Assembly: GCA_049724395.1 (NCBI GenBank)
Contig: JAUGWO010000131.1
Coordinates: 1 to 64,000, forward strand
Length of the DNA stretch: 64,000 bases
From: Spongospora subterranea f. sp. subterranea
Lineage: Eukaryota
Direction: 5' to 3'
Below the pieces are notes generated by a model. It saw only the letters and a program-made list of their open reading frames with translations. It made no database searches and was not told the DNA's origin. The position numbers were made by a program, and so were the translations under genes. Positions 1 through 39,966 of this stretch are shown piece by piece (the stretch's first letter is position 1; every line of letters begins with the position of its first letter).

Positions 1-828
1 TTGGCCACACACCTGGCAATGTTTGAGCAACACCTATAGCCGTGTGTACAAGTTGAGATATTGCAAGCACCCAACTTATTTTGCTCAGAACTGATCGCAG
101 AAAACATTTTGACAACACCAATTACTGAAAGTCATAAAGAGGAATTAACACACTTTTCGATTCTTTGTTCCCTGCATTGATCAGTATGATGGGAAGCAAA
201 GAACCCAATTCAACTAACCAGGCCGATCGAAATAGGATGAACATTTCCAATGATGAACAAAGGAGAGTTTTTGTCCTAGAAAGGGTGTACCGGTAACCAT
301 AAACTGTGTACGTTCAACGACGTTCTAATGTCACTAACGGCCTGCTTGTGATGCTGAAGGAATAAATGAAATAATTTCTCCAACGCAGATCCTCAAATTC
401 TCTTCTTGAGCTTGCGAAGGTCCCGATTGATCCGATAGGTTAATCTGGCCAGCGAAGTAAGCCAGTGACCAGTTATTCACATACAAAATCGACCTCATGT
501 TTAATGATGGAAGAGCTCCAACCGTTAAAACCAAAAATAGAATTGGCAAGCCAGTGCTCAAACACAACTTGACCAGCTAAATAAGCGTGACCTGGTCCTA
601 TAAATCACCATAAAAATTGGACTCAAAGGAACACGAACATATCAAAACAACAACCAATGATGTATGCTCCAACAAGAAGACTCACCATTTGACCCGCCTG
701 TTGGTTTATAGGACATCATCGTATGACTTGGGCGTTTGTTAAGCCTCTCGGTGATCCGTCTTTTCTCGTCATCACTGTACGAGAATCGAGTCCCATCAAT
801 ATTCATCAATATATCATTTATGGTTTGA
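1..828. repeat. Direct repeat copy A of an ~825 bp segment (copy B 3618-4439)
   Basis: Bases 1-828 match 3618-4439 almost exactly. The visible difference is a 6-nt indel (ggcaagCCAGTGctcaaac vs ggcaagctcaaac). Copy A runs off the window start. Confidence 0.95.
334..828 (-). pseudogene. RAD52-family N-terminal fragment, 5'-truncated copy
   Basis: Same spliced reading as 3951-4447 (QTINDILMNIDG...GGSNG|PGHAYLAGQVVFEHWLANSIFGFNGWSSSIIKHEVDF|INLS...ICVG). It lacks the MAS start and carries an in-frame 6-nt insertion. Confidence 0.8.
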
Positions 829-875
829 ATAATAACACGGAATAAATACCAGTTCATGTTAACATGAGGAACCCT

Positions 876-985
876 ACACTGTACTCATCACATCACCACT
901 GCCATGTGGGGGCCACAATGTACACTGTACACGTCCCCACTGCCATGTGAGGGATACACTGTACACATCACCACTGCCGTGTGGG
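876..985. repeat. Three short imperfect tandem repeats (tacactgtac...ccactgccrtgtg)
   Basis: ccactgccatgtg, ccactgccatgtg and ccactgccgtgtg, each preceded by tacactgtac, spaced roughly 35-40 nt apart. Confidence 0.8.
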
Positions 986-1064
986 TGCCGCCACGACTAT
1001 AGACTCAATGTGGATCCAAATTGATCCAACACTGGGCGAAGTCACTTGAAAATGGGGGCCCAGA

Positions 1065-1133
1065 AAAGACTGGCCACTTTAACTGGCCATTTCGAAAAAG
1101 TGCGCGGATGGCCAGTTAAAGTGGCCAGTCTTT
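1065..1133. repeat. Perfect 26-bp inverted repeat with 17-nt loop
   Basis: aaagactggccactttaactggccat (1065-1090) is the reverse complement of atggccagttaaagtggccagtcttt (1108-1133). Confidence 0.95.
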
Positions 1134-1203
1134 GTACTATAGATACGAGAATAGACTGGCAACAAACTGATTGTGGCTCTTGGTCAATATATATTGGGTA
1201 CGT

Positions 1204-1375
1204 TGAATTCACTGGCTTGATTCACTGGCCGCACTTTTTCAAGCCAGTGAATTCAATATCTTGGTATGAGCAGTGAATTCACTGGCTTGATTCACTGGCT
1301 TGACGCATTTATCTGAGCCATGAATCATGCCAGGTCGAATTCACTGCTATACCAAGATATTGAAATCACTGGCTT
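1204..1375. repeat. Cluster of ttcactggc motifs in direct and inverted orientation
   Basis: tgaattcactggcttgattcactggc occurs at ~1204 and ~1274. aagccagtgaattcaatatcttggtat (~1241) pairs with ataccaagatattgaaatcactggctt (~1349). Confidence 0.85.
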
Positions 1376-1734
1376 ACTTCGCTGGCCAGATTAACCTATC
1401 GGATCAATCGGGACCTTCGCAAGCTCAAGAAGAGAATTTGAGGATCTGCGTTGGAGAAATTATTTCATTTATTCCTTCAGCATCACAAGCAGGCCGTTAG
1501 TGACATTAGAACGTCGTTGAACGTACACAGTTTATGGTATGGTTACCGGTCGTTGAACGTACACAGTTTACGGTTACCGGTACACCCTTTCTAGGACAAA
1601 AACCCTCCTTTGTTCATCATTGGATATTACCGGCGACCTCAAGAATATGCACAAGATGCACATCCAGTGCAACTGTACTATGTACTATTTCGATCGGCCT
1701 GTTTAGTTGAATTGGGTTCTTTGCTTCCCATCAT
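1367..1734. repeat. Inverted, internally rearranged copy of ~185-467 (and ~3802-4084)
   Basis: cactggcttacttcgctggccagattaacc...gaacgtacacagtttatggt is the reverse complement of ~296-467. Further matches continue to cttcccatcata, interrupted by a small tandem duplication and an insertion. Confidence 0.9.
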
Positions 1735-1779
1735 AATTGTATTTTCGTGCTCAATGCGGGGAACAAAAAGTCGAAAGGT

Positions 1780-2416
1780 GTGGGATATTCACGAGTTCAA
1801 CATCAAGCAGTTCGAATTCTTTCCACCTGATGCAGATCAGCATCTACCCGATGCTGATAAAGTTCCGTTTGCTATCAATGGCAACTGTTGTTACCGGTTT
1901 GAGTCAATGTCTGTCAAACCCAACCTAATGTCCCGGTTCAGCCACTGGCAATGGCGTTGTACTCGATCGAATTATATTCCTGTTGGGGAAAACCCGAAAG
2001 GAATTTCGGTAACCTACAAGAGGTGCTGTGGGGTGTTATTGTGTACCAATGGTGATTGTGCGGTTCGCATGCGGCCAAACCAGAACTACCCGACAAGGGT
2101 AACTGGCATGTAAGTGTGATTACATCTGCTATGAGACCTCATCTCAATGTCCTGCTGTAGGTGCCCTGTTTGTTCGATGGAATTGCGACATCAAATCCTT
2201 GTGAATGCGCCATTATGTGGGTGCAACACTTCGTGAAAGATCGCTGTATCATAATTCATGATGGGAATCATGAACATAAAATACCTCACGTCAAGAAACC
2301 CGACCACTACGGGAAGCAGGCGTTGAAGGACATTGTCATGGCAGCTCCAAGAAGGACCGCACAGCAATTGTTAGTCCCTACTCCAGGAACCAACGCAGAG
2401 TCGGTTCGTCTTACGC
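1780..2416 (+). mobile_element. GCM (WRKY-GCM1 superfamily) zinc-finger domain, copy 1, probable transposase N-terminus (degenerate)
   Basis: WQWRCTRSN...YKRCCGVLLCTNGDCAVRMRP, then an intron ending ctgtag at ~2160, then CPVCSMELRH/(frameshift)PCECAIMW...IHDGNHEHKIP. This follows the GCM pattern W-x-R...K-x-C-x-GV-x2-C...C...RP...CxxC...C...G-x-H-x-H-x2-P. Confidence 0.75.
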
Positions 2417-2666
2417 ATGAGGGGATGGCAATACTAAGGAAGACTTGATTTCCTATATAAAGGTTATTTATATGGAAAAAACTGAGTAAATGTTATCGTA
2501 AATGTGCTTTCTTCCCTGGTCGAGGGTTCGTCAGTAGTTGCTGATCGAAATGGTCAGGCCTAATCCTCCTGGTAGCGATATTTACGATAACATTTACTCA
2601 GTTTTTTCCATATAAATAACCTTTATATAGGAAATCAAGTCTTCCTTACGATTGCCATCCCCTCAT
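2417..2666. repeat. Foldback: 87-bp inverted arms (2417-2503 / 2580-2666), 76-nt spacer
   Basis: atgaggggatggcaat...gttatcgtaaat and its reverse complement, with 2 mismatches seen. Confidence 0.95.
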
Positions 2667-3074
2667 CATAAGATAAAACCCGTTTACTGTGCTCAACCAG
2701 ATTTTGCTGGAATGTCCACAAGATATGCAGGCTTTGTGGTCATTCCATTTTCGGGTTTGAATCGTAGGCATTATACGTTGATCGTAACTAAGTCATGGCT
2801 GATATAGCGTAAAATGATTTGCTGGAACAATCACGTTCAACCAAGCTTGAGAACTGCTTTGACAATGTGGCCAATCCTTGTATGCAGCACTGATTAATTC
2901 TCCATATTGTTTTCCTTGACCGCATCGATATTTTCAATACATCACTGAGTGGATGGTCGAACAGGCAGCCGAATCATCCTTACAGGCGGTCTTGGATGTA
3001 TTGATGAACGACGGTGCGTACGAGGAGACAGACAGAAGATGTTATGATCCAGGCTGCGATCAAGTATAAGCAAA

Positions 3075-3451
3075 ATGGGTGCCTGCAATCTCTCAACTTA
3101 TGCACATGGCTATAGGTGTTGCTAAAAGATGCTCGGTGTGTGGTGAAGATACCGGACAAAATCATGTTCGTCGAATTACCGCAAGATTTAATGTCAGCGG
3201 AAATTGACTGTAATTTGATTCTGAATGTTGGTGGCTGCAAATGGACGCAAGTAGGGCGCATTAGCGCCACACAACGTACCGGTATGCACTTTTACTCTCA
3301 TATACTACGAGCTGATGTGCCCATACCGGGCTGGTTTCATTATAATGATCTTGATAATGGCGGAAGGCCTGTACTTATCTCGCCGATCACCAATGGGCGT
3401 AAACAACTTTCTTTTTTCGTTTTCTACGTCAAAAATCCGGAGATAAACTGA
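3075..3451 (+). mobile_element. USP/C19-like cysteine peptidase C-terminal (His-box) fragment
   Basis: WTQVGRISATQRTGMHFYSHILR...GWFHYNDL...LSFFVFYVK resembles the USP His-box layout G-x-H-F/Y...W-x2-Y-N/D-D...L-x-Y. A diverged inverted paralog of its upstream part lies at ~3541-3690. Confidence 0.6.
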
Positions 3452-3617
3452 AAATTATTTCTTGTGTCTTTGTCTGCTATCTTTGATCATAAGCGCTTTT
3501 CAGGAAGGCCTTAGTCATACGCATATATGCTAGCTGCGTTAAATCAGATTACATTCTATTTCCGATGTCATTAAGCCTTGTAGTATTTCGATAAAAAAAC
3601 ATGATCTGTCCGGCAGT

Positions 3618-4439
3618 TTGGCCACACACCTGGCAATGTTTGAGCAACACCTATAGCCGTGTGTACAAGTTGAGATATTGCAAGCACCCAACTTATTTTG
3701 CTCAGAACTGATCGCAGAAAACATTTTGACAACACCAATTACTGAAAGTCATAAAGAGGAATTAACACACTTTTCGATTCTTTGTTCCCTGCATTGATCA
3801 GTATGATGGGAAGCAAAGAACCCAATTCAACTAACCAGGCCGATCGAAATAGGATGAACATTTCCAATGATGAACAAAGGAGAGTTTTTGTCCTAGAAAG
3901 GGTGTACCGGTAACCATAAACTGTGTACGTTCAACGACGTTCTAATGTCACTAACGGCCTGCTTGTGATGCTGAAGGAATAAATGAAATAATTTCTCCAA
4001 CGCAGATCCTCAAATTCTCTTCTTGAGCTTGCGAAGGTCCCGATTGATCCGATAGGTTAATCTGGCCAGCGAAGTAAGCCAGTGACCAGTTATTCACATA
4101 CAAAATCGACCTCATGTTTAATGATGGAAGAGCTCCAACCGTTAAAACCAAAAATAGAATTGGCAAGCTCAAACACAACTTGACCAGCTAAATAAGCGTG
4201 ACCTGGTCCTATAAATCACCATAAAAATTGGACTCAAAGGAACACGAACATATCAAAACAACAACCAATGATGTATGCTCCAACAAGAAGACTCACCATT
4301 TGACCCGCCTGTTGGTTTATAGGACATCATCGTATGACTTGGGCGTTTGTTAAGCCTCTCGGTGATCCGTCTTTTCTCGTCATCACTGTACGAGAATCGA
4401 GTCCCATCAATATTCATCAATATATCATTTATGGTTTGA
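3618..4439. repeat. Direct repeat copy B of 1-828
   Basis: Near-identical to 1-828 (offset 3617, then 3611 after the indel). Confidence 0.95.
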
Positions 4440-4447
4440 CTGGCCAT
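3951..4447 (-). pseudogene. RAD52: RAD52/Rad22-family single-strand annealing protein, spliced N-terminal part, 3'-truncated
   Basis: Exons 4447-4297, 4208-4102 and 4061-~3996 join by phase-consistent GT-AG introns. They give MASQ...FSYSDDEKRRITERLNKRPSHTMMSYKPTGGSNGPGHAYLAGQVVFELANSIFGFNGWSSSIIKHEVDFINLS...LRICVG, matching the Rad52 signature YxxGxxVxxLANxxFGF/YNGW...VDF. The downstream VRVxLKDGxxHEDxGxG part is absent. Confidence 0.85.
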
Positions 4448-4541
4448 TGTGGATTTTCGGATTATTATATACACCTGAGTGTATGCAATTCATGTTCCGG
4501 ACTTGCCGTGTTTCGCGTCGCATTTCTGTCTATTTCAGGTG

Positions 4542-5236
4542 ATGGATGTCGACGAGGTCAACCTCAGCTGGTCAATATCCAATTTCACTGGGGTCGACTT
4601 CAACTCCAATCCGGTGAAATATTTATCGAACCATCATCCAGATTGCGACGGGGTTCCTTTGCGCCCAAATGAAGGTGCACGTTTTTTTTTGAACACGCGG
4701 CATCAAAACCCAATATGGTTGCCAACTATTCTGAATGGCAGTGGCGAGTAACAAAGACACGATACTGGCCATTATTGGACAGAAAAAGAGCTGTCAAAAT
4801 CATTTCGAAGATGTGCAACGGGGTTATTTCGTGCTCCAACGCCAAGTGTTCGTATTCTCTGCGTCCTAAACAGAATAATCCGGACTCATTCGACCATTCG
4901 TACTGCTGCAGTTTCATAGCAGGCGCATCTAAACTTTTATGCAGGTGTCACGTTTGTCTGGGTGAATTGACCCGTTTGAAATGCAATGCCAAATGCCGGT
5001 GGATTGAGGCTGCTTTCTGCAATAAAAGCGACGAACCCTGGGGTCTTCTGGGGAGAATATCTGCAACAACTGCCACAGGTGGGCATTTTTTCGTACACGT
5101 TAAAAGGGATGAACCGGGCAAGATGCCAGGATTCTATAATTACGATGACCTTACAAACGGAGGAAGGGCCGTTTTCGATGAGAAACCAATAAATTTCAAA
5201 GCCAATTCCGTTTATGTGGCGTACGGTAAAAAATAA
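4542..5236 (+). mobile_element. GCM domain copy 2 (divergent) fused by apparent internal deletion to a USP-like His-box
   Basis: WQWRVTKTRY...SKMCNGVISCSNAKCSYSLRP, a probable intron at the position seen in copy 1, then CHVCLGELTRLKC...RW. This runs directly into WGLLGRISATTATGGHFFVHVKR...GFYNYDDL...VYVAYGKK. There is a frameshift near 4690-4715. Confidence 0.7.
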
Positions 5237-5821
5237 GCATAAGGTTTCCTTATTAATGCCAACACGAATCGGATTGATGTTGTCAGCATTTAAGTGCCGC
5301 AGAAATTCTCCCCAACAGACCCCAGGATTCGTCGCCCAGAAGAACTTCATATAGAAAGGACAATCAATTGAAACACCAACGGGTACCCAAATATAGGTGA
5401 CATTTTTACAATACAATCAGGCCACGGGTGGGCAGTTTTTCGCAGGAAGAAAGGGGAAGTTTCCGATCTTATGCTGGCTTAAACTATTTCAAGTTAGTGG
5501 TAAATACAAATGGTTAACCTGAATATGTCTGCCTGAATGATGTGTTGAGGACAACGTTTTCTACGCGGGTGAGGAAAAAGGCGGTCGACGTTTGTCAGTA
5601 GTTCCCAGTTTTGTTCGCTGAACCGTGCGGTGACAATTGTTCATTCACGTAAAAAAGGGATGAACCCGGCAAGATGCCATGATTAAGCCAACTACGTTGA
5701 CACGGTACACTCAGGTGTATATGATAATATTTCAATTCCAAATCCACAATGGCCAGTCTTTTATAGCCCTCCCTTGAAAATACATCCAAATGTATATTGA
5801 TCTACTGTATTGTCACGTCCT

Positions 5822-6660
5822 TCATGATCGTAACCTAACGGATGAGGATATGATTGTCATCCTTATGGCGGCTACATTGCTTTCACCATTCTGCATGGAC
5901 TCTTCGGCACTCTCCAACCGGTCTTGGAGAGTTGTTAAAGAAATGTTCTCTTGATCATGTAGTGCTTCAATCACCGCAGGGAAGCGACCTCGGCAGCCCA
6001 CCATAAGGATGTCAATCATATCCTCATCCGGTAGGTTACGATCATGAAGCCTTAACTGATCCCTCAGTGATTGCTTCTCCCGGATGTACTCCAGGACGCC
6101 CTGCTCGCCCCCATCCGTACAGACCAAAACATAGCCTTTAACGTCGCCGGCTTGATGCGGCTACTTTTACCATACTTGATTTCTAACATTTGAATGAGAA
6201 GCGTGCAGGATTCGGTGTCATCAAATTGTGACCAGATCTGGGGCACCATCGCCAGTAGCAGGACACCTGCTAACTGTTTATCAGTTTCTTGGTCGACAAT
6301 TTCCAAAGTTAGGAACTTGGAGAGGCGGTATGTCTTGAAGGCCAACTTGACCGTCTTGAACCGATCGTTGTTCTTCTTTTAGCGCTTTATTCTTCGCATG
6401 AGTTAATCTTCGAAGAGCGAACTGAAGGATGATTGACAGATTCTTCATCCTTCAGTTTGCTCTTTGAAGATTAACTCATGCGAAGAATAAAGCGCTAAAA
6501 GAAGAACAACGAGCTCAAGCTAAAGCTGCTGGTAATACAGCACTGGTAGTTGTTTTCTCCTATCAGTTGGGGTTGTATAAGCAAGTTGAGCTTTGAAGGA
6601 TCAACTTCATTGCCGTTTCGCTTGCTGGTGTTGTTTCTGCCATATCTGGGCCCATAACCA
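5822..6660 (-). mobile_element. Ty1/copia LTR retrotransposon remnant: PBS plus frameshifted gag
   Basis: TGGTTATGGGCCCAG at 6660-6646 (minus) is the copia-type initiator-Met half-tRNA primer binding site, followed at once by an ATG. ORFs 6345-6064 and 6127-5822 (LEIKYGKSS...EYIREKQSLRDQLR...DEDMIDILMVG...FPAVIEAL...LQDRLESAEE) resemble copia Gag (UBN2-like). Confidence 0.8.
6365..6512. repeat. Foldback: 68-bp inverted arms (6365-6432 / 6445-6512), 12-nt loop, inside the copia gag
   Basis: tcgttgttcttcttttagcgc...actgaaggatga and its reverse complement, with 2 mismatches seen. Confidence 0.95.
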
Positions 6661-7250: not shown

Positions 7251-7985
7251 GTAGCGTTAGAATGATAGCATAGACTGCGGTAACCATTGATCCTGCCAGG
7301 ACTCTAATAGAATATCTTTCGTTACTTGGGTTTAATCACAGGCCTTTGGACAGAAGGTGGTCATCATTATTGTAAAACAAAAAGGAGGTACTTACAAGGT
7401 CATTTGATCCGCATTGCTGACGACTCATCAAGCAAGGAGCCAAAACCGCTGTCATCATCTGATGATTCACCAATGGATTCAAAAAATGAGATTATCAATG
7501 CAGTAATAAAATGATCAAAAAAATATACCAGATCGCAACGGAGTCGATATAATAGTTCTCGCCCCGACTCCATCAACATCTGTAACTTGTTCGACGTCCA
7601 ACGAATATTAATTCGCGAAACCTCTGCTAAGCGGTCATGGCAACGTTTTGAACAAAATGTTGAGGAATGATTGGAGAGAATACCAGGCTGCAGCGGTTCA
7701 GAGGTGGCAGTCCTACCCTCGACAGCAACGCAAACCGTATAATGGTCGGGATTAAACGCGCTACTGATTTGCGCCACTACTATGTCGCCATGATGTCTAA
7801 TGTCAGATGATACGGTTGGGTCAAATCTCAAGACATTGCCAAATACGTACAGGTTAGAGTCTGGTTCGGCCTGACCAAAAATACGACTGGCTCGATATCG
7901 ACACTGTGATTTTCAAAAACAGGTCTCTTCCTCTTCAGAAAAACCATTGTAGAAATCACTGTTGCGGCGAAATTCGACATACCTA

Positions 7986-8203
7986 CCGTATTCCTCGGAG
8001 CTCTGTACCCCCCAAACCCTAAACTCCGTGAGAGGCTAGCGACATCATTATTAACGCTACATTTCCCGAAATATCTCTTTTGGATAGGGTATCGGATACC
8101 TTACAAGTTTCCCAGTGGGAAATTTACTGTATTTTACAATGCGTAGCTGTCGGGGCTTCACGGAGTTTAGGGTTTGGGGGGTACAGAGCTCCGAGGAATA
8201 CGG
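7986..8203. mobile_element. MITE, 218 bp, 46-bp perfect TIRs, TA target-site duplication (Tc1/mariner-pogo type ends)
   Basis: TA|ccgtattcctcggagctctgtaccccccaaaccctaaactccgtga ... tcacggagtttagggtttggggggtacagagctccgaggaatacgg|TA. Confidence 0.85.
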
Positions 8204-9295
8204 TAGGCGGTATCATCTCCATCGTCGGAACAAGTCTTGGCGCATGCCTAGGAGGGTGGCTAATCCCTTGGTCACATTGGTGGACAAGGGCCAGGAAGTG
8301 CTGCGCTTCCGATCGGATTTTATCGACAAAGACGGCGAGCGTCAGATGAGAGCTGAGAAAGAGCTTCTCATACTTAAGGTGATGGTTGGCAAAACTCGGG
8401 AAACTCTGTAAACAATCCTCAATGAAGGCAAAATCCTTGAACACCGATTTCAGTGTGTGGAATAACAGTATCAGACTCTTTATCAAAATTTTTCACTGGA
8501 ACTTCGGTTTTGATGACTGATGGAGCTTCGGCTTTTGAGCGATATCATGATCAATGTCAGGCCAACGCAACGTTGAACTTTTAGATCCTGTAGAGATGCG
8601 TTTTCTTATACAAGTCCTCAACCCATTGTATGAGCCTCGTCTTTGACAGAAGCAGTGGTCTGAGCTCGAAAAATACGCAATGGCAATGGTTCTGTTCCTG
8701 ATGAGGCTATTCACCTTCACAGTTTCGGGACCATCAGTTTGTGCGTATTCTCGTTGGATTGTTGGTTTATCAAAATGTTAAACCATATTTGTTTAACATC
8801 GAAGGTGCGTTTGTATACTGTTGGGATACGGGTAACTGCTTTTACAGCGAACTGAACTTGTGGTCGCGTAGGCCACAGGCACGAAGGACAGAACGCATCA
8901 AGCGGCAAACCAGGCCCGTTATATTGCTAAAATACCAGTACCACATGTACATGACTAAGAATATGACAGATTCTCTTGATTTTCAGTCCACTTATCGCTG
9001 GTCAAACATGTTGTTTTGCTGATACTGATATATATATGGAGATGAAGGAGATATATCAGATATATCAACATCACTACAGATATTAATGGTGTAGTGACAT
9101 TGGAGGATTGAGGAATAGGTCGATTAATATACAATGGGATCTGTCCGGTATTGTGTTCCCCAATTGAATCAACAGTTGGGACCGGGTTCAATTGGGTATT
9201 TCGCAGTCCGCAGCAGATGATTGCCAACCAAAGGGCCAGTAGATGGGCTGGGTAAATTACCCCCAATCTCTGACGATCCTCCTTAATTCCTCATC

Positions 9296-19957: not shown

Positions 19958-20675
19958 TATATGAATATTTCGTCAGCCAAAGGTCCTCAACTGTTGAGTG
20001 ACGTAATGTGCGCCAGGTCGGGCAGGACGCAAGATCTATCATCTATGGGATGGTGATCGGTTACAGTGACAGTACCACAGTGACTGAGCCTCTTTAGCAG
20101 TGCCACAGAGATCTCTATTTATATCACTATCCGTCAGTGGTTAATTAACACGTTGATGACTGACAGGGGACACACGCCAGTCAGCTGAGCAACTGGATGG
20201 GCTGTATAATTGACTGAGCAATCTACCGTCTGCACTGGCGCTGAGTCTCTATCTAACGTCTCAACCGGCCACCACCTTTAAATCCATCCTTAGACCCTCG
20301 TATCAATATGAGTACCACTCACAACTCAATCGATTGTCGTCTGACCGTGGGGCCATATTGACATCTGCTGATTCACACTCTAGAACGGGTTTGTCAGAGG
20401 TTCTAGACTCTGATTCTAGTCCATAGTTGCAGGTGCGGTTCTCCCCTAGATCTCTCTCTGTCTTGTTCTCCCGACCTCCCCCTCTTACTGTCTCGCCCAA
20501 TTACGCCATAACGCCGTCACAGCATCGTCGAAGTATTCATCGTTAGGCGGCATTAGATACTGGCGAAACAACGTCCGGGCAGGTGAACAAGCTTGGTGAG
20601 CTTAATCCCTCTTCTCTAATCCACCAATCCCTGCGTTGATCGTAGCCTTGCATTCTATGCAAGACTAAATCAACA

Positions 20676-21722
20676 ATGTTGCTGAATCTTGTGACTTTTT
20701 TTTTCATGAAGGGTCTACAGCGAACTTACCATTTAACTTTGGTTATGGTTGGACTTCTGGAGTGCGACACCATGGATTCGGTCCATAAAAGTGTCACCAA
20801 GCTCAAAGGTCGCCCTGTAGTTGGATCTGGAGCTGGATTAAACGGGTCGTACTTGATCAACTCATTAGCTGCTAACGATAACGACAAGCCCGAATGGATT
20901 TTCAAGCCCAGAAGTGAGGAAGCTGAAGTTTCAGGTGAAACCTTAAAGTCGGGCGCAATCAAAGGCACTTCTTGCGTCAAGGAAGTTGCTGCTTATTACG
21001 TTGATCATGAAGGGTTTTCGGGCGTTCCAGAAACTCGTGCGATCAACGCCAGCGTGCAACTCGAGGCGTCAAAATATATCATGGATTTTGGCAGTCTGCA
21101 GAGATTTGTGGCCCATGATGGCTCCTGTGAAGAATATGGCTCATCTCTGTTTGAGGTTGACAATATCCACCGCATTGCCCTTCTCGATCTTCGCATCGCC
21201 AATTGCGATCGCCATGAAGGGAATCTGCTGGCCGTTCGCGAAGGCTCAAAGCTGCGAGCGGTCCCCATCGATCATGGATACTGTCTGCCGAATTGGCGAT
21301 ACCTAAGCGATTTGTATTTCTGCTGGAGTTCCTGGCGCCAGGCCAATGTGCCGTTCTCTGAGGCCACCAAGCAATATATTGCAGGACAGAAACCATTTAT
21401 GGATATTGCCAATCTTCTCGATATAGGTGTTGATCACGACAGTGTCATCACCTACCTTGTCTGTTCAATATTCGTCCAGAGCGCCGTCGCCGGTGGCCTG
21501 AGTCTGGCTCAGATCGCCAGGGCCATGCAAAGAACGGCTCAAATTGGGTTGGGAGAGCCATCGCAGTTTGAGCAGTTGATTTCTCAAGCCGCGATCGCTA
21601 CAGGATTTTCCAATTTCCGATTTAGCGGTCGATCCGACTGGAACCTACCTATTGTTGGCCGATTTCTGAAGCATTTTTTCAAAAGTTGCATGCACTTCCT
21701 TTCTCGCCCGTGTCAAAAATAA
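20676..21722 (+). CDS. Type II phosphatidylinositol 4-kinase (plant PI4K-gamma-like), paralog 1
   Basis: GLNGSY, IFKPRSEE, KEVAAYYVDHEGFSGVPET, GSLQRFV, LDLRIANCDRHEGNLL and PIDHGYCLP. Confidence 0.92.
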   Translation: MLLNLVTFFFMKGLQRTYHLTLVMVGLLECDTMDSVHKSVTKLKGRPVVGSGAGLNGSYLINSLAANDNDKPEWIFKPRSEEAEVSGETLKSGAIKGTSCVKEVAAYYVDHEGFSGVPETRAINASVQLEASKYIMDFGSLQRFVAHDGSCEEYGSSLFEVDNIHRIALLDLRIANCDRHEGNLLAVREGSKLRAVPIDHGYCLPNWRYLSDLYFCWSSWRQANVPFSEATKQYIAGQKPFMDIANLLDIGVDHDSVITYLVCSIFVQSAVAGGLSLAQIARAMQRTAQIGLGEPSQFEQLISQAAIATGFSNFRFSGRSDWNLPIVGRFLKHFFKSCMHFLSRPCQK

Positions 21723-25979: not shown

Positions 25980-26282
25980 ACATATCTTCTGTTATGCGGC
26001 CCCTGCATCGATCGGTGAATCCTGTAGGGATGAGTTTAGGGTTTTAAGGAGCTTATTGGCTTTATTATGAATGGCAATGCTGAGTTCAGCGTTCGTAGAT
26101 CATGAGCCTTTGGCGGCCTCTGCAGTCGAGTTTTGGTTGTCCGCCAAAGGCTCATTTTATGATCTACGAACGCTGAGCTCAGCATTGTCATTCATAATAA
26201 AGCCAATAAGCTCCTAAAAACCCTAAACTCATCCCTACAGGATTCACCGACCGATGCAGGGGCCGCATATCAGAAGATATGT
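25980..26282. repeat. Foldback: ~137-bp inverted arms (25980-26116 / 26141-26282), 24-nt loop
   Basis: acatatcttctgttatgcggcccctgcatcg...gagcctttggcgg vs ccgccaaaggctc...cagaagatatgt, with a few substitutions and one 5-nt indel. The outer gaaaacagtacta also pairs with tagtactgttttc at ~26314. Confidence 0.95.
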
Positions 26283-28935: not shown

Positions 28936-30243
28936 TTATTTAACAGATTTAAAGTCTTGAAGTAGATCGAGAGCTGTGTAGAGAAAGTGTTGAAAAAAAT
29001 TGGCGACAATGGGAAGTCTCCAGTCAGATAGATATTGTAAGGACATGCCGTTGAATCCAGTACGATGTGCAGCGTCGTAAACAAGACTTTCGAATGGTGA
29101 CGGCTGCGAGGCTTTTTCGTTGAAATCGCGTTGCATGAGCTCCGCTATTTGCCTGAGGTTTAATCCGGCCAACACGCAGCGTTGCACGAACAACGAGCAT
29201 AATACGTAAGTAATCACATTATCATGGCCGACTCCAATTGATAGTAACCTAGGAACATCCAAAAGAGGATCCAAGGATAGTATATATTGCTTTGACCTTT
29301 CAGAAAACGGCAAGCTCGCCTGACGCCAAGAACTCCAGCAAAAATACAAATCGTTAAGATTACGCCACGTAGGTAAACAATATCCATGATCGATTGGAAC
29401 AAGTTGAAGCTTGCCATTCTCACGAACCACTAGCAGATTGCCTTCGTGGCGATCACAGTTACCGATTCGAAGATCCAGGAGACCAATCTGGTGGACATGC
29501 TCGACATCGAATAATGAAGAGCCATATTCTTCACATGAGCCTTCGGATTCAATGTACTTCTGAAGACTGCCAAAATCGGTAAAAGTCGATGCTTCCAATT
29601 GTACATTAGCAGTGATCGCTGTCGTTTCAGGAACACCAGCAAATCCCATATGATCAACAACGTACGCAGCAACTTCCTTGATGCAAGATGTCCCTTTCGT
29701 TGCACCGGATTTCAGTACTTCACCCGATTTTTCAGCTTCTTGACTCCTTGGCTTGTATACCCATTCAGGCCTATCATCTTCTTTCGCGGTGATGGCGTTC
29801 AAAAAGTATGAACCGCTTAAACCAGCTTCTGAACCAACAATTGGCCTTCCCTTGAAAGTTGGATTGGGAGATGTTGATACTGATTTAGGACTTTCTGGTT
29901 GAAGAGTAACACATAAGAAGTGACAAGTTTGATCGACGGTGGACACGATAAGAACAATCACGCTCATCTTGGATTGTGGATCATGAAAGGCGTCTGGTAA
30001 AGTATTAGGTACATGTACCTGTTTCAGAGGATAATCGAATGGGACACAAGCTAAAGGCTCCGTCTTGAAAAAGTATAAGCCCGAACGTGCGAGCACTAAG
30101 GCGGGCCTGATCAGGAGTCGGAGATGTGGACAAAAAAATCGTTGATCAAGCGCTGACAGACGCCAATCAATGAGCCCGAATACGTAGTGATAGAGGGGAT
30201 GACGAGACGACAGAACAGCACAATGGATATGAGCACTGATCAC
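28936..30243 (-). CDS. Type II phosphatidylinositol 4-kinase, paralog 2 (true start probably downstream, near 29967 or later)
   Basis: Same motif set as paralog 1: GLSGSY, VYKPRSQE, KEVAAYVVDH, LDLRIGNCDRHEGNLL and PIDHGYCLP. Confidence 0.92.
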   Translation of the reverse strand: MISAHIHCAVLSSRHPLYHYVFGLIDWRLSALDQRFFCPHLRLLIRPALVLARSGLYFFKTEPLACVPFDYPLKQVHVPNTLPDAFHDPQSKMSVIVLIVSTVDQTCHFLCVTLQPESPKSVSTSPNPTFKGRPIVGSEAGLSGSYFLNAITAKEDDRPEWVYKPRSQEAEKSGEVLKSGATKGTSCIKEVAAYVVDHMGFAGVPETTAITANVQLEASTFTDFGSLQKYIESEGSCEEYGSSLFDVEHVHQIGLLDLRIGNCDRHEGNLLVVRENGKLQLVPIDHGYCLPTWRNLNDLYFCWSSWRQASLPFSERSKQYILSLDPLLDVPRLLSIGVGHDNVITYVLCSLFVQRCVLAGLNLRQIAELMQRDFNEKASQPSPFESLVYDAAHRTGFNGMSLQYLSDWRLPIVANFFQHFLYTALDLLQDFKSVK

Positions 30244-31373
30244 AGTGGATATACCAATGGGCTACAATAGGTACTCTTCGATCCAGGTCTCACTCAAGGA
30301 ATATTCCGCCAAAGGACAGGAAGGCGCATGTCACGGAGAATCTGTTTTCGGAACAGTTGGGTAACCCTACACAGTGTGGACGAGGGGGTCTTCCAGTGGT
30401 ACACCTGAGATTACATTACCTTAAGTACACTTACAGTACTGTATCTATAGCATAGGTGTAGTGATATTCGCCAGAGCAGTGCAATTCGATACACAATCGG
30501 TGCCGGATTCCGCGAGGTACACTGTAGGTGTAAACTAGTTCCTTGAGTGCAATGACCATTTGACGTATGCGTGATTTCTAAAACAAATTTTGGCAATTCC
30601 TGGACCAGGTTGTGTGTCTATAGCAATTCTTTGTTAGATTCGTTTTAAGTGGGCATTATCGGTAAGAAACCCAGGCGACACCAAATATCAAGTAGAAAAT
30701 ATATCGCCAAGTGAATCGGATATTGCTGCCCTACTAGATATTTAAACCAATATCGCTTTCATATATTTTTTTATCAAAGTCTGAACCCTTCGGAGGTTGC
30801 CGAATGTAGAGACCTTCAAAACTAATCATTATAAATGAGAAGAGGGTAGCAGTTCCGTTTGCTTGAGGTAGTGGTCGGCCATCAACGCGGGTCTTCTGAA
30901 CTATGCGAGACTAAAGAGTTGATCAATTTGAGAAGAGAGTTTATTCAGCGGATGATTGTCAGGTTGCCCCCCCCCCATTGTTGATCCAGCAATTGGTCAC
31001 TGTAAGACAGTGGCTGGAAAGTCCGGGCGGACAGTCCTCCCAGTCGCCAAGCTCCGCCGAGCGACATCATCACTGTCATGCCCGCAGCTCGACGACTCAA
31101 CGGTAATTTCAACATATAATCCAAGAAAAATAGCGAGAAAATCAAGCACTGTTATCCATCTGAAACCAATTGATACCCTCTAGTCTCGAGCTGCCATCAA
31201 ACCATAAATATGTCTCCGTAACCGCTCTTAAACCTTCTGTACTAAGCGTGCGCAAATGAAAACTGCCACATTCTGTTTTTGGCGAGAATTTCTTAAATAT
31301 ATTTACACTGCTTCAGCTGCATTTATGTCCAGCTGAAGAGCGCCAAACGAAATGAAAAATACATCCAGCAGAA

Positions 31374-39003: not shown

Positions 39004-39966
39004 CGATGTCCAAATTACTGTTTTCAGGAGTGTTGTTCTTTCTGGTATCATTGGGATCTTGTGCCCCAATTCAATTCCAAAAATCGCAAGTTTTCAAAGA
39101 CTAACGTAAGGCAATCATTAATAAGTTGGTAAAAAGAATTGGTTAACAATTGAAAAACTAATCGGAGAATACAGAGAACAAACAGCTGTGGATTTGGCTC
39201 ACAAGATTGACGTCGAGGATTTCGATGATTGGATCTCCGTTGATGGAGACTTTTATGGGAAGTTTTAATGGATCAATCCTAACACTAACCGCCCCTTCAC
39301 CACAACTTTTATCAATTTGACACTTTTCTACGACCAGTAATTCGAATTGATTTTGATTCGGTTTGATCTGATATATAAATAGGATAAATGTCGTTGAGAT
39401 TCTGATAGAGAGAGGGGCCAATTGAAATTGCTGATTTGATCTCACAGGGACAGTGATATCGTCCGTCAGGAGATGTCGAAACTTCATCAATCTCCAGAAC
39501 CGTACTAGAAAAACTGCTTCAATGAACGCTGTTTCAAATATGAATCAACAGACTGGCCCCTCTCTCTATCAGAATCTCAACGACATTTATCCTATTAATA
39601 TATCAGGTCAAACCGAATCAAAATTGATTCGAATTTACTGGTTGCAGAAAAGTGCCAAATTGATAAAAGTTGTGGTGAAGGGGCGGTTAGTGTTAGGATT
39701 GATCCATTAATACGTCCCATAAAAGTCTCCATCAACGGAGATCCAATCATCGAAATCCTCGACATCAATCTTGTGGGCCAAATCCACAGCTGTTTGTTCT
39801 CTTTATACTCCGATTAGTATTTCAATTGTTAACCAATTCTTTTTACCAACTTATTAATGATTGCCTTACGTAAGTCTTTGAAAACTTGCGATTTTGGAAA
39901 TTGGGGCACAAGATCCCAATGATACCAGTAAGAACAACACTCCTGAAAACAGTAATTTGGACATCG
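39004..39966. repeat. Large foldback: ~415-bp inverted arms (39004-39420 / 39554-39966), ~133-nt spacer
   Basis: cgatgtccaaattactgttttcaggag...gagagaggggcca vs tggcccctctctc...cagtaatttggacatcg, with scattered substitutions and small indels. No TSD seen. Confidence 0.95.

What the first reader, a model, noticed from the sequence alone, without database searches (positions are those of the whole stretch)
1..5790. Candidate new DNA-transposon type carrying a RAD52 annealase head-to-head with a GCM-domain, USP-peptidase-tailed gene
Seen: the RAD52-like ATG (4447, minus) and the GCM ORF ATG (4542, plus) diverge from a ~95-bp spacer. A diverged inverted copy of part of that spacer plus the ATG GCC AGT start recurs at ~5707-5758. 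There are two divergent GCM copies (1780-2416, 4542-5010) with an apparently shared intron position and several USP-like pieces (3075-3451, 3541-3690, 5020-5236, ~5300-5400). Known: GCM belongs to the WRKY-GCM1 zinc-finger superfamily linked to Mutator-like transposases, and several DNA transposon groups carry cysteine peptidases. Rad52-fold proteins act as annealases in phages (Sak) and in host repair. Inference: the parent is a multi-gene mobile element with its own recombination mediator, possibly to repair or copy excision gaps. I do not know of RAD52 as eukaryotic transposon cargo.
Basis: partly seen in the sequence, partly recalled or inferred. Interest (0 to 1): 0.9.

Follow-up and report, generated by a model that had tools for sequence, protein, structure and literature searches.

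The report
Broken Mutator transposons flanking RAD52 fragment
This is two broken copies of a jumping gene that likely belongs to a published Mutator branch (MuDRF), with a GCM DNA-binding domain and a tail predicted to fold like a ubiquitin-removing protease, lying against a cut-off piece of the cell's own RAD52 repair gene, which the transposon family does not appear to carry.

Summary
The pieces are real; the proposed RAD52-carrying transposon is not supported. The RAD52 sequence is a 355-bp fragment: exon 1, exon 2 and 17 bp of intron 2. It matches letter for letter a 34-kb contig at single-copy depth in two runs (54x, 30x), while the GCM element reads 14-23 times deeper. The host gene is spliced in RNA contigs and continues into an exon absent from the window. 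The 'RAD52 ATG' at 4447 and its echo at 5706-5758 are the two terminal inverted repeats of the second element. The GCM pieces belong to a GCM + DDE + USP-like single-gene family: the relatives' profile hits mouse GCM1 (E 3.5e-7), and a relative's tail models as a USP fold (Z 12). A complete 3.3-kb metagenomic relative has TIRs and no RAD52. Both window copies lack the DDE core; one run shows 1,858 other letters in the gap. GCM + DDE matches MuDRF (Cantu 2011). This scan has already reported MuDRF with USP tails on other DNA several times. The RAD52 junctions are a local rearrangement or partly assembly error.

The parts
1..468 (.). Right-hand part of element 1 (copy of 3618-4085), cut by the window start
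   Evidence: multi-copy depth
468..828 (-). RAD52 5' fragment, copy 1 (exon 1 about 806-686, intron 685-598, exon 2 597-485 with a 6-bp insertion that none of the 4 runs shows)
   Evidence: Pfam Rad52_Rad22 E 3.3e-7
829..1091 (.). True upstream region of the host RAD52 gene
   Evidence: one 34,084-nt contig of run X1 (depth 54) covers 468-1091 unbroken
1068..1130 (.). 63-bp hairpin with GACTGGCCA ends; high-copy terminal-repeat module or MITE-like piece
   Evidence: summed depth about 2,700 in X1 over 1009-1104
1203..1375 (.). Hairpin-rich outer terminal repeats of element 1
   Evidence: other copies continue into this sequence beyond 4085 (loose ends)
1366..1782 (+). Left inverted-repeat arm of element 1 (pairs with 3766-4085)
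1754..2412 (+). Element 1 GCM-domain exons (first in-frame ATG 1754, start not shown; intron 2110-2160; this copy has a frameshift near 2193)
   Evidence: (E 7.9e-55 to the relatives' profile)
2413..2675 (.). 263-bp fold-back standing where one run's contig has 1,858 other letters (likely the DDE core and the Cys box)
   Evidence: joint 2412-2676 on a 2,749-nt contig of X1, depth 940; relatives have 476-537 aa between the same two motifs
2676..3451 (+). Element 1 USP-like tail, four exons (introns 2755-2807, 2880-2937, 3064-3115), with His and Asp motifs
   Evidence: RNA joints; open frame after splicing; E 5e-15 to the tail of L001; tail of L001 models as a USP fold
3542..3717 (-). Inverted, decayed copy of part of the USP-like tail; shared by the family, not private to this copy
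   Evidence: 76% to 3054-3220; covered by high-depth DNA contigs and by RNA contigs
3766..4085 (-). Right inverted-repeat arm of element 1, cut short at 4085
   Evidence: loose ends at 4085 in all 4 runs continue into the outer repeat
4085..4439 (-). RAD52 5' fragment, copy 2 (likely start 4417, exon 1 to 4297, intron 4296-4209, exon 2 4208-4102, 17 bp of intron 2)
   Evidence: Pfam E 9.4e-10; 0 other letters against 34-kb contigs in X1 and X2, intron spliced in X3 and X13
4438..4483 (+).
   Evidence: other copies have other flanks at 4436
4542..5023 (+). Element 2 GCM-domain exons (frameshift near 4680; likely intron 4900-4944)
   Evidence: E 5.1e-39 to the relatives' profile
5024..5236 (+). 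End of the element 2 USP-like tail, joined to the GCM part by an internal deletion
   Evidence: loose ends at 5024 in X1, X2, X3 continue the GCM exon instead; 47% to the element 1 tail
5299..5684 (.). Scrambled tail remnants (5299-5335 inverted, 5634-5684 direct)
5706..5758 (-). Right terminal inverted repeat of element 2
   Evidence: 81% to 4438-4483; flanks differ among 4 contigs of X1 at 5758

Best explanation
The region holds two internally deleted copies of a multi-copy transposon, likely of the MuDRF branch of Mutator, whose single spliced gene likely encodes a GCM DNA-binding domain, a DDE transposase core and a USP-like tail, and they sit against duplicated 5' fragments of the host's single RAD52 gene. 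Shown: copy depth, inverted repeats, splicing in RNA contigs, the GCM and tail homologies, and the identity and truncation of the RAD52 piece. Inferred mechanism of the element: GCM binds the hairpin-rich terminal repeats, the DDE core cuts and pastes, and the USP-fold tail removes SUMO or ubiquitin from the transposase or nearby chromatin or repair proteins. Inferred origin of the layout: an element copy lay about 260 bp upstream of RAD52. Breaks at element ends, repaired by template switching or unequal exchange, made a tandem unit of about 3.6 kb (829-4439) that copies RAD52 exons 1-2, and a second subfamily's end joined at 4439. Part of this layout may instead be assembly error.
For: RAD52 piece: 0 other letters over 355 bp against a 34,084-nt contig (depth 54.1, X1) and a 33,829-nt contig (depth 29.7, X2), both leaving the window at 4085. 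Element 1 contigs read 817-1,163 in X1 (15-22x) and 425-685 in X2 (14-23x); element 2 reads 4-9x. The X1 contig follows 829-1091 upstream of RAD52. RNA run X13 splices RAD52 intron 1 and runs on from exon 2 into sequence absent from the window. The window GCM profile finds 21 proteins at E<=0.001; 15 are GCM-like by their sequences and 6 are spurious long proteins hit through the intron or a short stretch (4 of the 6 scanned: cadherin, Ig or Fn3 repeats). Full-length relatives P0018, P0022, P0021 and L001 carry D..D..E motifs; three of the four have N-T-C-Y. The relatives' profile hits mouse GCM1 1ODH at E 3.5e-7. The P0018 model matches 1ODH at Foldseek E 1.2e-5 and Z 12.1. The L001 tail model matches USPL1 at Z 12.0 (209 aligned, rmsd 5.5), and the 36 chains with Z>=8 are USP or USP-like by title or my recall. 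L001 is a 3,322-nt contig with one 928-aa ORF between 133-nt inverted arms and no RAD52.
Against: No genome was held, so copy numbers come from contig depth, which the tool says is not a copy number. The DDE core is not in the window: I saw only the length of the gap and 30-nt loose ends, and the DDE region of the P0018 model was low-confidence with no transposase fold match. No 9-bp target-site duplication was found at any of 3 end pairs tried. Pfam did not recognise GCM, MULE or UCH in L001. The USP match is for a relative's model of mean pLDDT 54, with no Foldseek hit at E<=0.001 (best 1.4e-2). The RAD52/element-2 junction at 4439 is present in one X2 contig, so it is not purely an artefact, though X2 may be the window's own source. 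Only one complete relative was available for the no-RAD52 test.
Confidence: 0.88

Rival explanations
1. The elements are real but the RAD52 junctions and the 3.6-kb duplication are assembly or amplification chimeras made at short shared terminal-repeat motifs.
For: The junction at 468/4085 appears in none of the listed pieces of 4 runs; the 34-kb contigs pass it unbroken. The 6-bp insertion at 550 is absent from all 4 runs. The window has several fold-backs. The locus lies at the very start of the window.
Against: One X2 contig joins 828/4439 to the window's 4440+ sequence exactly. Contigs drop rare branches and the tables were cut, so absence of the 4085 junction is weak evidence. Hairpin-rich ends are a family feature (L001 and L002). 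This rival changes only how the layout arose, not the verdict on RAD52 cargo.
Confidence: 0.35
2. Pack-MULE-style capture: a composite unit bounded by the GACTGGCCA ends at 1068 and 5758 has picked up RAD52 exons 1-2 and can be moved by the transposase in trans.
For: Both ends carry the same terminal motif in inverted orientation. Mutator elements are known to carry host gene fragments between TIRs (PMC6431247, passages). The junction at 4439 exists in X2.
Against: The RAD52 piece is at single-copy depth in both DNA-type runs. No target-site duplication at 1068/5758 (best 4 mismatches in 8). The left flank is the host RAD52 upstream region itself, so the unit has not moved.
Confidence: 0.06
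3. One reading: a new multi-gene transposon type with its own RAD52 annealase transcribed head-to-head with the GCM gene.
For: An in-frame ATG at 4447 does precede the RAD52 exon in copy 2, and the junction is seen in X2.
Against: The fragment is single-copy, identical to the host gene and truncated within the annealing domain. It lies outside both TIR pairs and is absent from L001 and L002 (0 of 2 loci). The ATG is part of the terminal repeat. In X1 all depth at 4460 carries an 8-bp insertion that the window lacks, and flanks at 4436 differ from RAD52.
Confidence: 0.02

Closest known systems
MuDRF elements (MuDR/Mutator superfamily; Repbase MuDRF-1_PSt to -3_PSt; Cantu et al. 2011, PMC3164196; I read passages and the Figure S2 legend, not the supplement)
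   Same: One protein with a GCM DNA-binding domain followed, in the relatives, by a DDE-type core; multi-copy; terminal inverted repeats.
   Different: Reported there from Basidiomycota and Naegleria; the closest named relatives here are Spongospora subterranea proteins (44-46% identity over the GCM part). The main text has 0 occurrences of 'protease'. The 9-bp TSD was not found for these broken copies.
Transposases with C-terminal Ulp1, OTU or C19 peptidase domains (Ginger1, Mutator, Helitron, a Trichomonas transposase; Bao et al. 2010, PMC2836005, passages)
   Same: A ubiquitin/SUMO-type cysteine protease domain fused behind a transposase; that paper already proposes a role in transposition or repair.
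   Different: Here the domain is USP-fold, nearest USPL1 by structure, and sits on a GCM-type Mutator.
WRKY-GCM1 superfamily of DNA-binding domains (Babu et al. 2006, PMC1702500, passages)
   Same: GCM fold with its zinc ligands; link to MULE transposases.
   Different: That paper describes the GCM1 family as animal-only and low-copy.
Pack-MULEs (Arkhipova and Yushenova review, PMC6431247, passages; authors recalled)
   Same: A host gene fragment beside Mutator ends.
   Different: The fragment is single-copy, still at its own locus, and not enclosed by one element's TIRs with a TSD.
Host Rad52 (Pfam PF04098)
   Same: The fragment is the host gene's own 5' part.
   Different: Only exons 1-2 are present; more than half of the 153-position profile is missing.

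Membership tests
MuDRF (GCM-type Mutator) | GCM DNA-binding domain | tested here: met
   Window peptides score E 7.9e-55 and 5.1e-39 on the relatives' profile (those relatives were found with window sequence). That profile hits 1ODH at E 3.5e-7; the P0018 model matches 1ODH at Z 12.1. Pfam GCM gives only sub-cutoff hits in 3 of 19 proteins scanned.
MuDRF (GCM-type Mutator) | DDE transposase domain in the same protein | tested here: inconclusive
   Deleted in both window copies. The 1,858-nt gap fits the 476-537 aa that relatives have there, and 4 of 4 full-length relatives show D, D and E motifs. No fold or Pfam confirmation.
MuDRF (GCM-type Mutator) | Terminal inverted repeats | tested here: met
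   1366-1782 / 3766-4085 and 4438-4483 / 5706-5758; L001 has 133-nt arms, 86% complementary.
MuDRF (GCM-type Mutator) | 9-bp target-site duplication | tested here: inconclusive
   None at 3 end pairs tried; best case 2 mismatches in 8 for 4438/5758. The ends are rearranged and no intact copy with flanks was available.
MuDRF (GCM-type Mutator) | Multiple genomic copies | tested here: met
   Contig depth 14-23x (element 1) and 4-9x (element 2) of the single-copy contig in X1 and X2; flanks vary at element 2 ends. Depth is only a rough proxy.
USP / peptidase C19 fold | USP fold | tested here: met
   For the homologous tail of L001: Z 12.0 to USPL1, 36 chains at Z>=8. Window tail to L001 tail E 5e-15 over 207 columns. 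Model pLDDT 54.
USP / peptidase C19 fold | Cys, His and Asp catalytic motifs | tested here: inconclusive
   His and Asp motifs are in both window tails. The Cys box falls in the deleted part; N-T-C-Y is in 3 of 4 full-length relatives.
USP / peptidase C19 fold | Cleavage of ubiquitin or SUMO | not testable with these tools
   Needs a biochemical assay.
RAD52 as transposon cargo | Copy number follows the element | tested here: not met
   Depth 54 against about 940 in X1; 30 against 425-685 in X2.
RAD52 as transposon cargo | Complete gene, distinct from the host gene | tested here: not met
   Ends 17 bp into intron 2; 0 differences from the single-copy contig; next exon absent from the window.
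RAD52 as transposon cargo | Inside the element's inverted repeats and present in related elements | tested here: not met
   Outside both TIR pairs; no tblastn hit in L001 or L002; no Rad52 Pfam hit in 4 TIR reading frames.
Pack-MULE | Gene fragment enclosed by one TIR pair with TSD, moved from its locus | tested here: not met
   No TSD at 1068/5758; the fragment is still beside its own upstream region.

The most novel reading that the evidence does not exclude
In one lineage of this protist, GCM-Mutator ends have captured the first two exons of RAD52, and a terminal repeat supplies an in-frame ATG. A truncated Rad52 made from it could interfere with the host's Rad52 rings and tilt repair of excision breaks in the element's favour: a Pack-MULE caught at birth with a repair gene.
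Probability: 0.05. Interest if true: 0.6.

Novelty: new variant of a known kind. Interest (0 to 1): 0.2.

Why it matters
The headline claim would have mattered, since my searches found no paper on RAD52 carried by a eukaryotic DNA transposon (listings only), but the evidence removes it. What remains is modest. MuDRF elements occur as a multi-copy family with spliced RNA contigs in what is likely a plasmodiophorid protist. They carry a USP-fold tail nearest to the SUMO protease USPL1, which I did not find described for MuDRF (the term occurs in 2 papers, 1 relevant). The intron-free 928-aa ORF of L001 is a convenient handle to test whether the tail is an active deSUMOylase or deubiquitinase.

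Tried and rejected
No genome was held, so no genome-wide tblastn or RAD52 tree was possible. Word-based homologue searches found nothing for the GCM exon, RAD52 exon 1 or the tail alignment (weak negatives). The protein atlas gave no answer. Scans of metagenome contigs with the second GCM exon and of viral contigs with the GCM alignment found no relative. Single window ORFs and the L001 tail alone found no meaningful PDB sequence match. I first read 3913-4085 as the second half of RAD52, from a chance look of one frame, and so suspected a RAD52-GCM fusion. I rejected this: the stretch is terminal repeat at about 31x depth with no Pfam Rad52 hit. The 886-aa P0018 model was unusable beyond the GCM domain, so it says nothing on the DDE fold. 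An exact look-up of 10 host proteins found 1 in the collection, with no name shown, so the organism is inferred, not shown. Earlier scan notes held nothing on this genome or on RAD52 with such elements.
Full report
What is in the sequence. Self-comparison shows that 1-828 repeats 3618-4439 at 99.3%, that 1366-1782 and 3766-4085 are long inverted arms, and that 4438-4483 and 5706-5758 are short inverted arms. Of 19 ORF pieces scanned, only 4090-4215 (minus) gave a Pfam hit above cutoff: Rad52_Rad22, E 9.4e-10, profile positions 30-62 of 153. A second scan of 14 pieces added only the other RAD52 copy. No genome was held, so I used public runs. 20 of 24 listed runs, from 8 studies, hold part of 1380-5800. 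I laid 4 of them: X1 and X2 (guessed DNA), X3 (guessed RNA) and X13 (oligo-dT RNA).

RAD52 is the host gene's 5' fragment. In X1 and X2, 4085-4439 lies on contigs of 34,084 and 33,829 nt at depth 54.1 and 29.7 with no differing letter; both contigs continue past 4085 into sequence that is not the window's. In X1 the same contig covers 468-1091 without a break, so the host upstream region is 829-1091 and not 4440-4541. X3 and X13 splice the 88-nt intron. X13 runs from exon 2 into a further exon, which by my hand translation continues the Rad52 pattern (compared from recall); a 15-nt probe for it finds 0 matches in the window. Both window copies stop 17 bp into intron 2. The likely host start is the ATG at 806/4417 (inference).

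GACTGGCCA occurs at 1068 and 4438 on the plus strand and at 1122 and 5750 on the minus strand, and nowhere else in 64 kb. Contigs matching from 4436, or up to 5758, have differing flanks (agreement 0.68 of 2 and 0.67 of 4 in X1), as element termini do. So 4438-5758 is one internally deleted element, and the 'ATG GCC AGT' at both places is its terminal repeat read outward. One X2 contig does join RAD52 at 828/4439 to the window's 4440+ sequence exactly, so this junction exists in at least one data set, which may be the window's source. X1 shows no break there.

The GCM element is multi-copy and has spliced RNA contigs. Element 1 contigs read 15-22 times the single-copy depth in X1 and 14-23 times in X2; element 2 reads 4-9 times (depth is a rough proxy). 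RNA-type contigs skip 2110-2160 and three introns in the tail. A 2,749-nt X1 contig joins 2412 to 2676 with 1,858 other letters between, where the window has a 263-bp fold-back. By my hand translation, the 30-nt loose ends on either side continue motifs that full-length relatives have at those points. Element 2 is likewise deleted at 5024.

Relatives give the architecture. A two-sequence profile of the window's GCM parts found 21 proteins at E<=0.001 among 1.84 billion. I kept 15 GCM-like ones and dropped 6 long proteins with short matches; 4 of those 6 were scanned and are cadherin, Ig or Fn3 repeat proteins. The closest named ones are Spongospora subterranea 'GCM domain-containing' proteins, 44-46% identical. 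P0018 (886 aa) matches both the window's GCM exons and its tail (E 6e-5 and 9e-4). A four-sequence alignment found 2 metagenome loci among 168 pattern matches. L001 is a near-complete element: one 928-aa ORF between 133-nt inverted arms built of small hairpins, with no other long ORF and no RAD52 match. All 4 full-length relatives show D, D and E motifs; 476-537 aa separate the two motifs that bound the window's gap, which fits 1,858 nt with a few short introns.

Folds. The nine-sequence profile hits mouse GCM1 (1ODH) at E 3.5e-7 with the cysteines and histidines aligned. The P0018 model is confident only over the GCM part and matches 1ODH (Foldseek E 1.2e-5; Z 12.1, 131 aligned, rmsd 3.7); it gives no support for or against the DDE fold. 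The L001 tail model (pLDDT 54, pTM 0.61) has no Foldseek hit at E<=0.001, but its best rows are USPL1 and USP18. The wide search gives USPL1 at Z 12.0 and 36 chains at Z>=8, all USP or USP-like by title or recall. The window's spliced tail matches the L001 tail at E 5e-15.

How it most likely works. The intact element is inferred to be a cut-and-paste Mutator with one multi-exon gene. GCM would bind the terminal hairpins, the DDE core would excise and insert, and the USP-fold tail would strip SUMO or ubiquitin to protect the transposase or shape repair; the last idea is already proposed for Ulp1 and OTU tails (PMC2836005, passages). The window holds non-autonomous remnants. An element copy next to the RAD52 upstream region likely caused a 3.6-kb tandem duplication that copied exons 1-2. 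The junction at 468/4085 was not seen in the listed pieces of any run, and the 6-bp insertion at 550 is in none of the 4 runs, so an assembly chimera remains possible for part of the layout. No target-site duplication was found.

What is known. Cantu et al. 2011 named MuDRF: one protein with GCM and DDE domains and 9-bp TSDs, in Basidiomycota and Naegleria (PMC3164196; passages and a figure legend read, supplement not read). The term occurs in 2 papers of the library, 1 relevant. Babu et al. 2006 link the WRKY-GCM1 fold to MULE transposases (passages). Searches for RAD52 as transposon cargo returned no such paper in their listings; subscription journals and Repbase were not searched. At least eight earlier notes of this scan describe GCM-type or Mutator elements with USP-like tails on other DNA, one in a clubroot-like protist; none mentions RAD52. 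I had reached the MuDRF paper before opening those notes.

Verdict. Observation partly confirmed; the RAD52-carrying transposon is not supported. It works like, and is probably, a MuDRF Mutator with a USP-like tail; membership is not complete because the DDE core and TSD could not be shown for these copies. Interest 0.2.

Noticed in passing
window 5820-6512: Copia-like gag remnant on the minus strand (Pfam Retrotran_gag_2 E 0.0018, below cutoff) with two fold-backs (5820-5871 / 5998-6049 and 6365-6512).
   Followed up: partly
window 7982-8207, 25980-26282, 39004-39966: Further fold-back structures with arms of about 50 to 400 bp; the 39-kb one has arms that differ at scattered positions. They may be foldback-type elements or template-switch products.
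   Followed up: partly
window 20646-21722 (+) and 28936-30261 (-): Two paralogous single-ORF genes, 71% alike in DNA over 568 bp, in inverted orientation; they look like phosphatidylinositol 4-kinase gamma-type proteins (label from recall).
   Followed up: no
34-kb contigs of X1 and X2, beyond window 468: Both hold a 40-letter piece matching terminal-repeat sequence ending at window 1394, somewhere on the far side of the RAD52 intron 2 breakpoint. It could be the homology that guided the rearrangement; its distance is unknown.
   Followed up: no
L001:18-3277: Near-complete, intron-free GCM + DDE-motif + USP-fold element with hairpin-built terminal repeats that share the motif AAAGACTGG with the window's element ends.
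   Followed up: partly
window 3257-3831: An oligo-dT RNA contig (X13) runs past the tail's stop codon through the inverted tail remnant into the right terminal repeat, so element RNA could fold back on itself (strand and level not shown).
   Followed up: no
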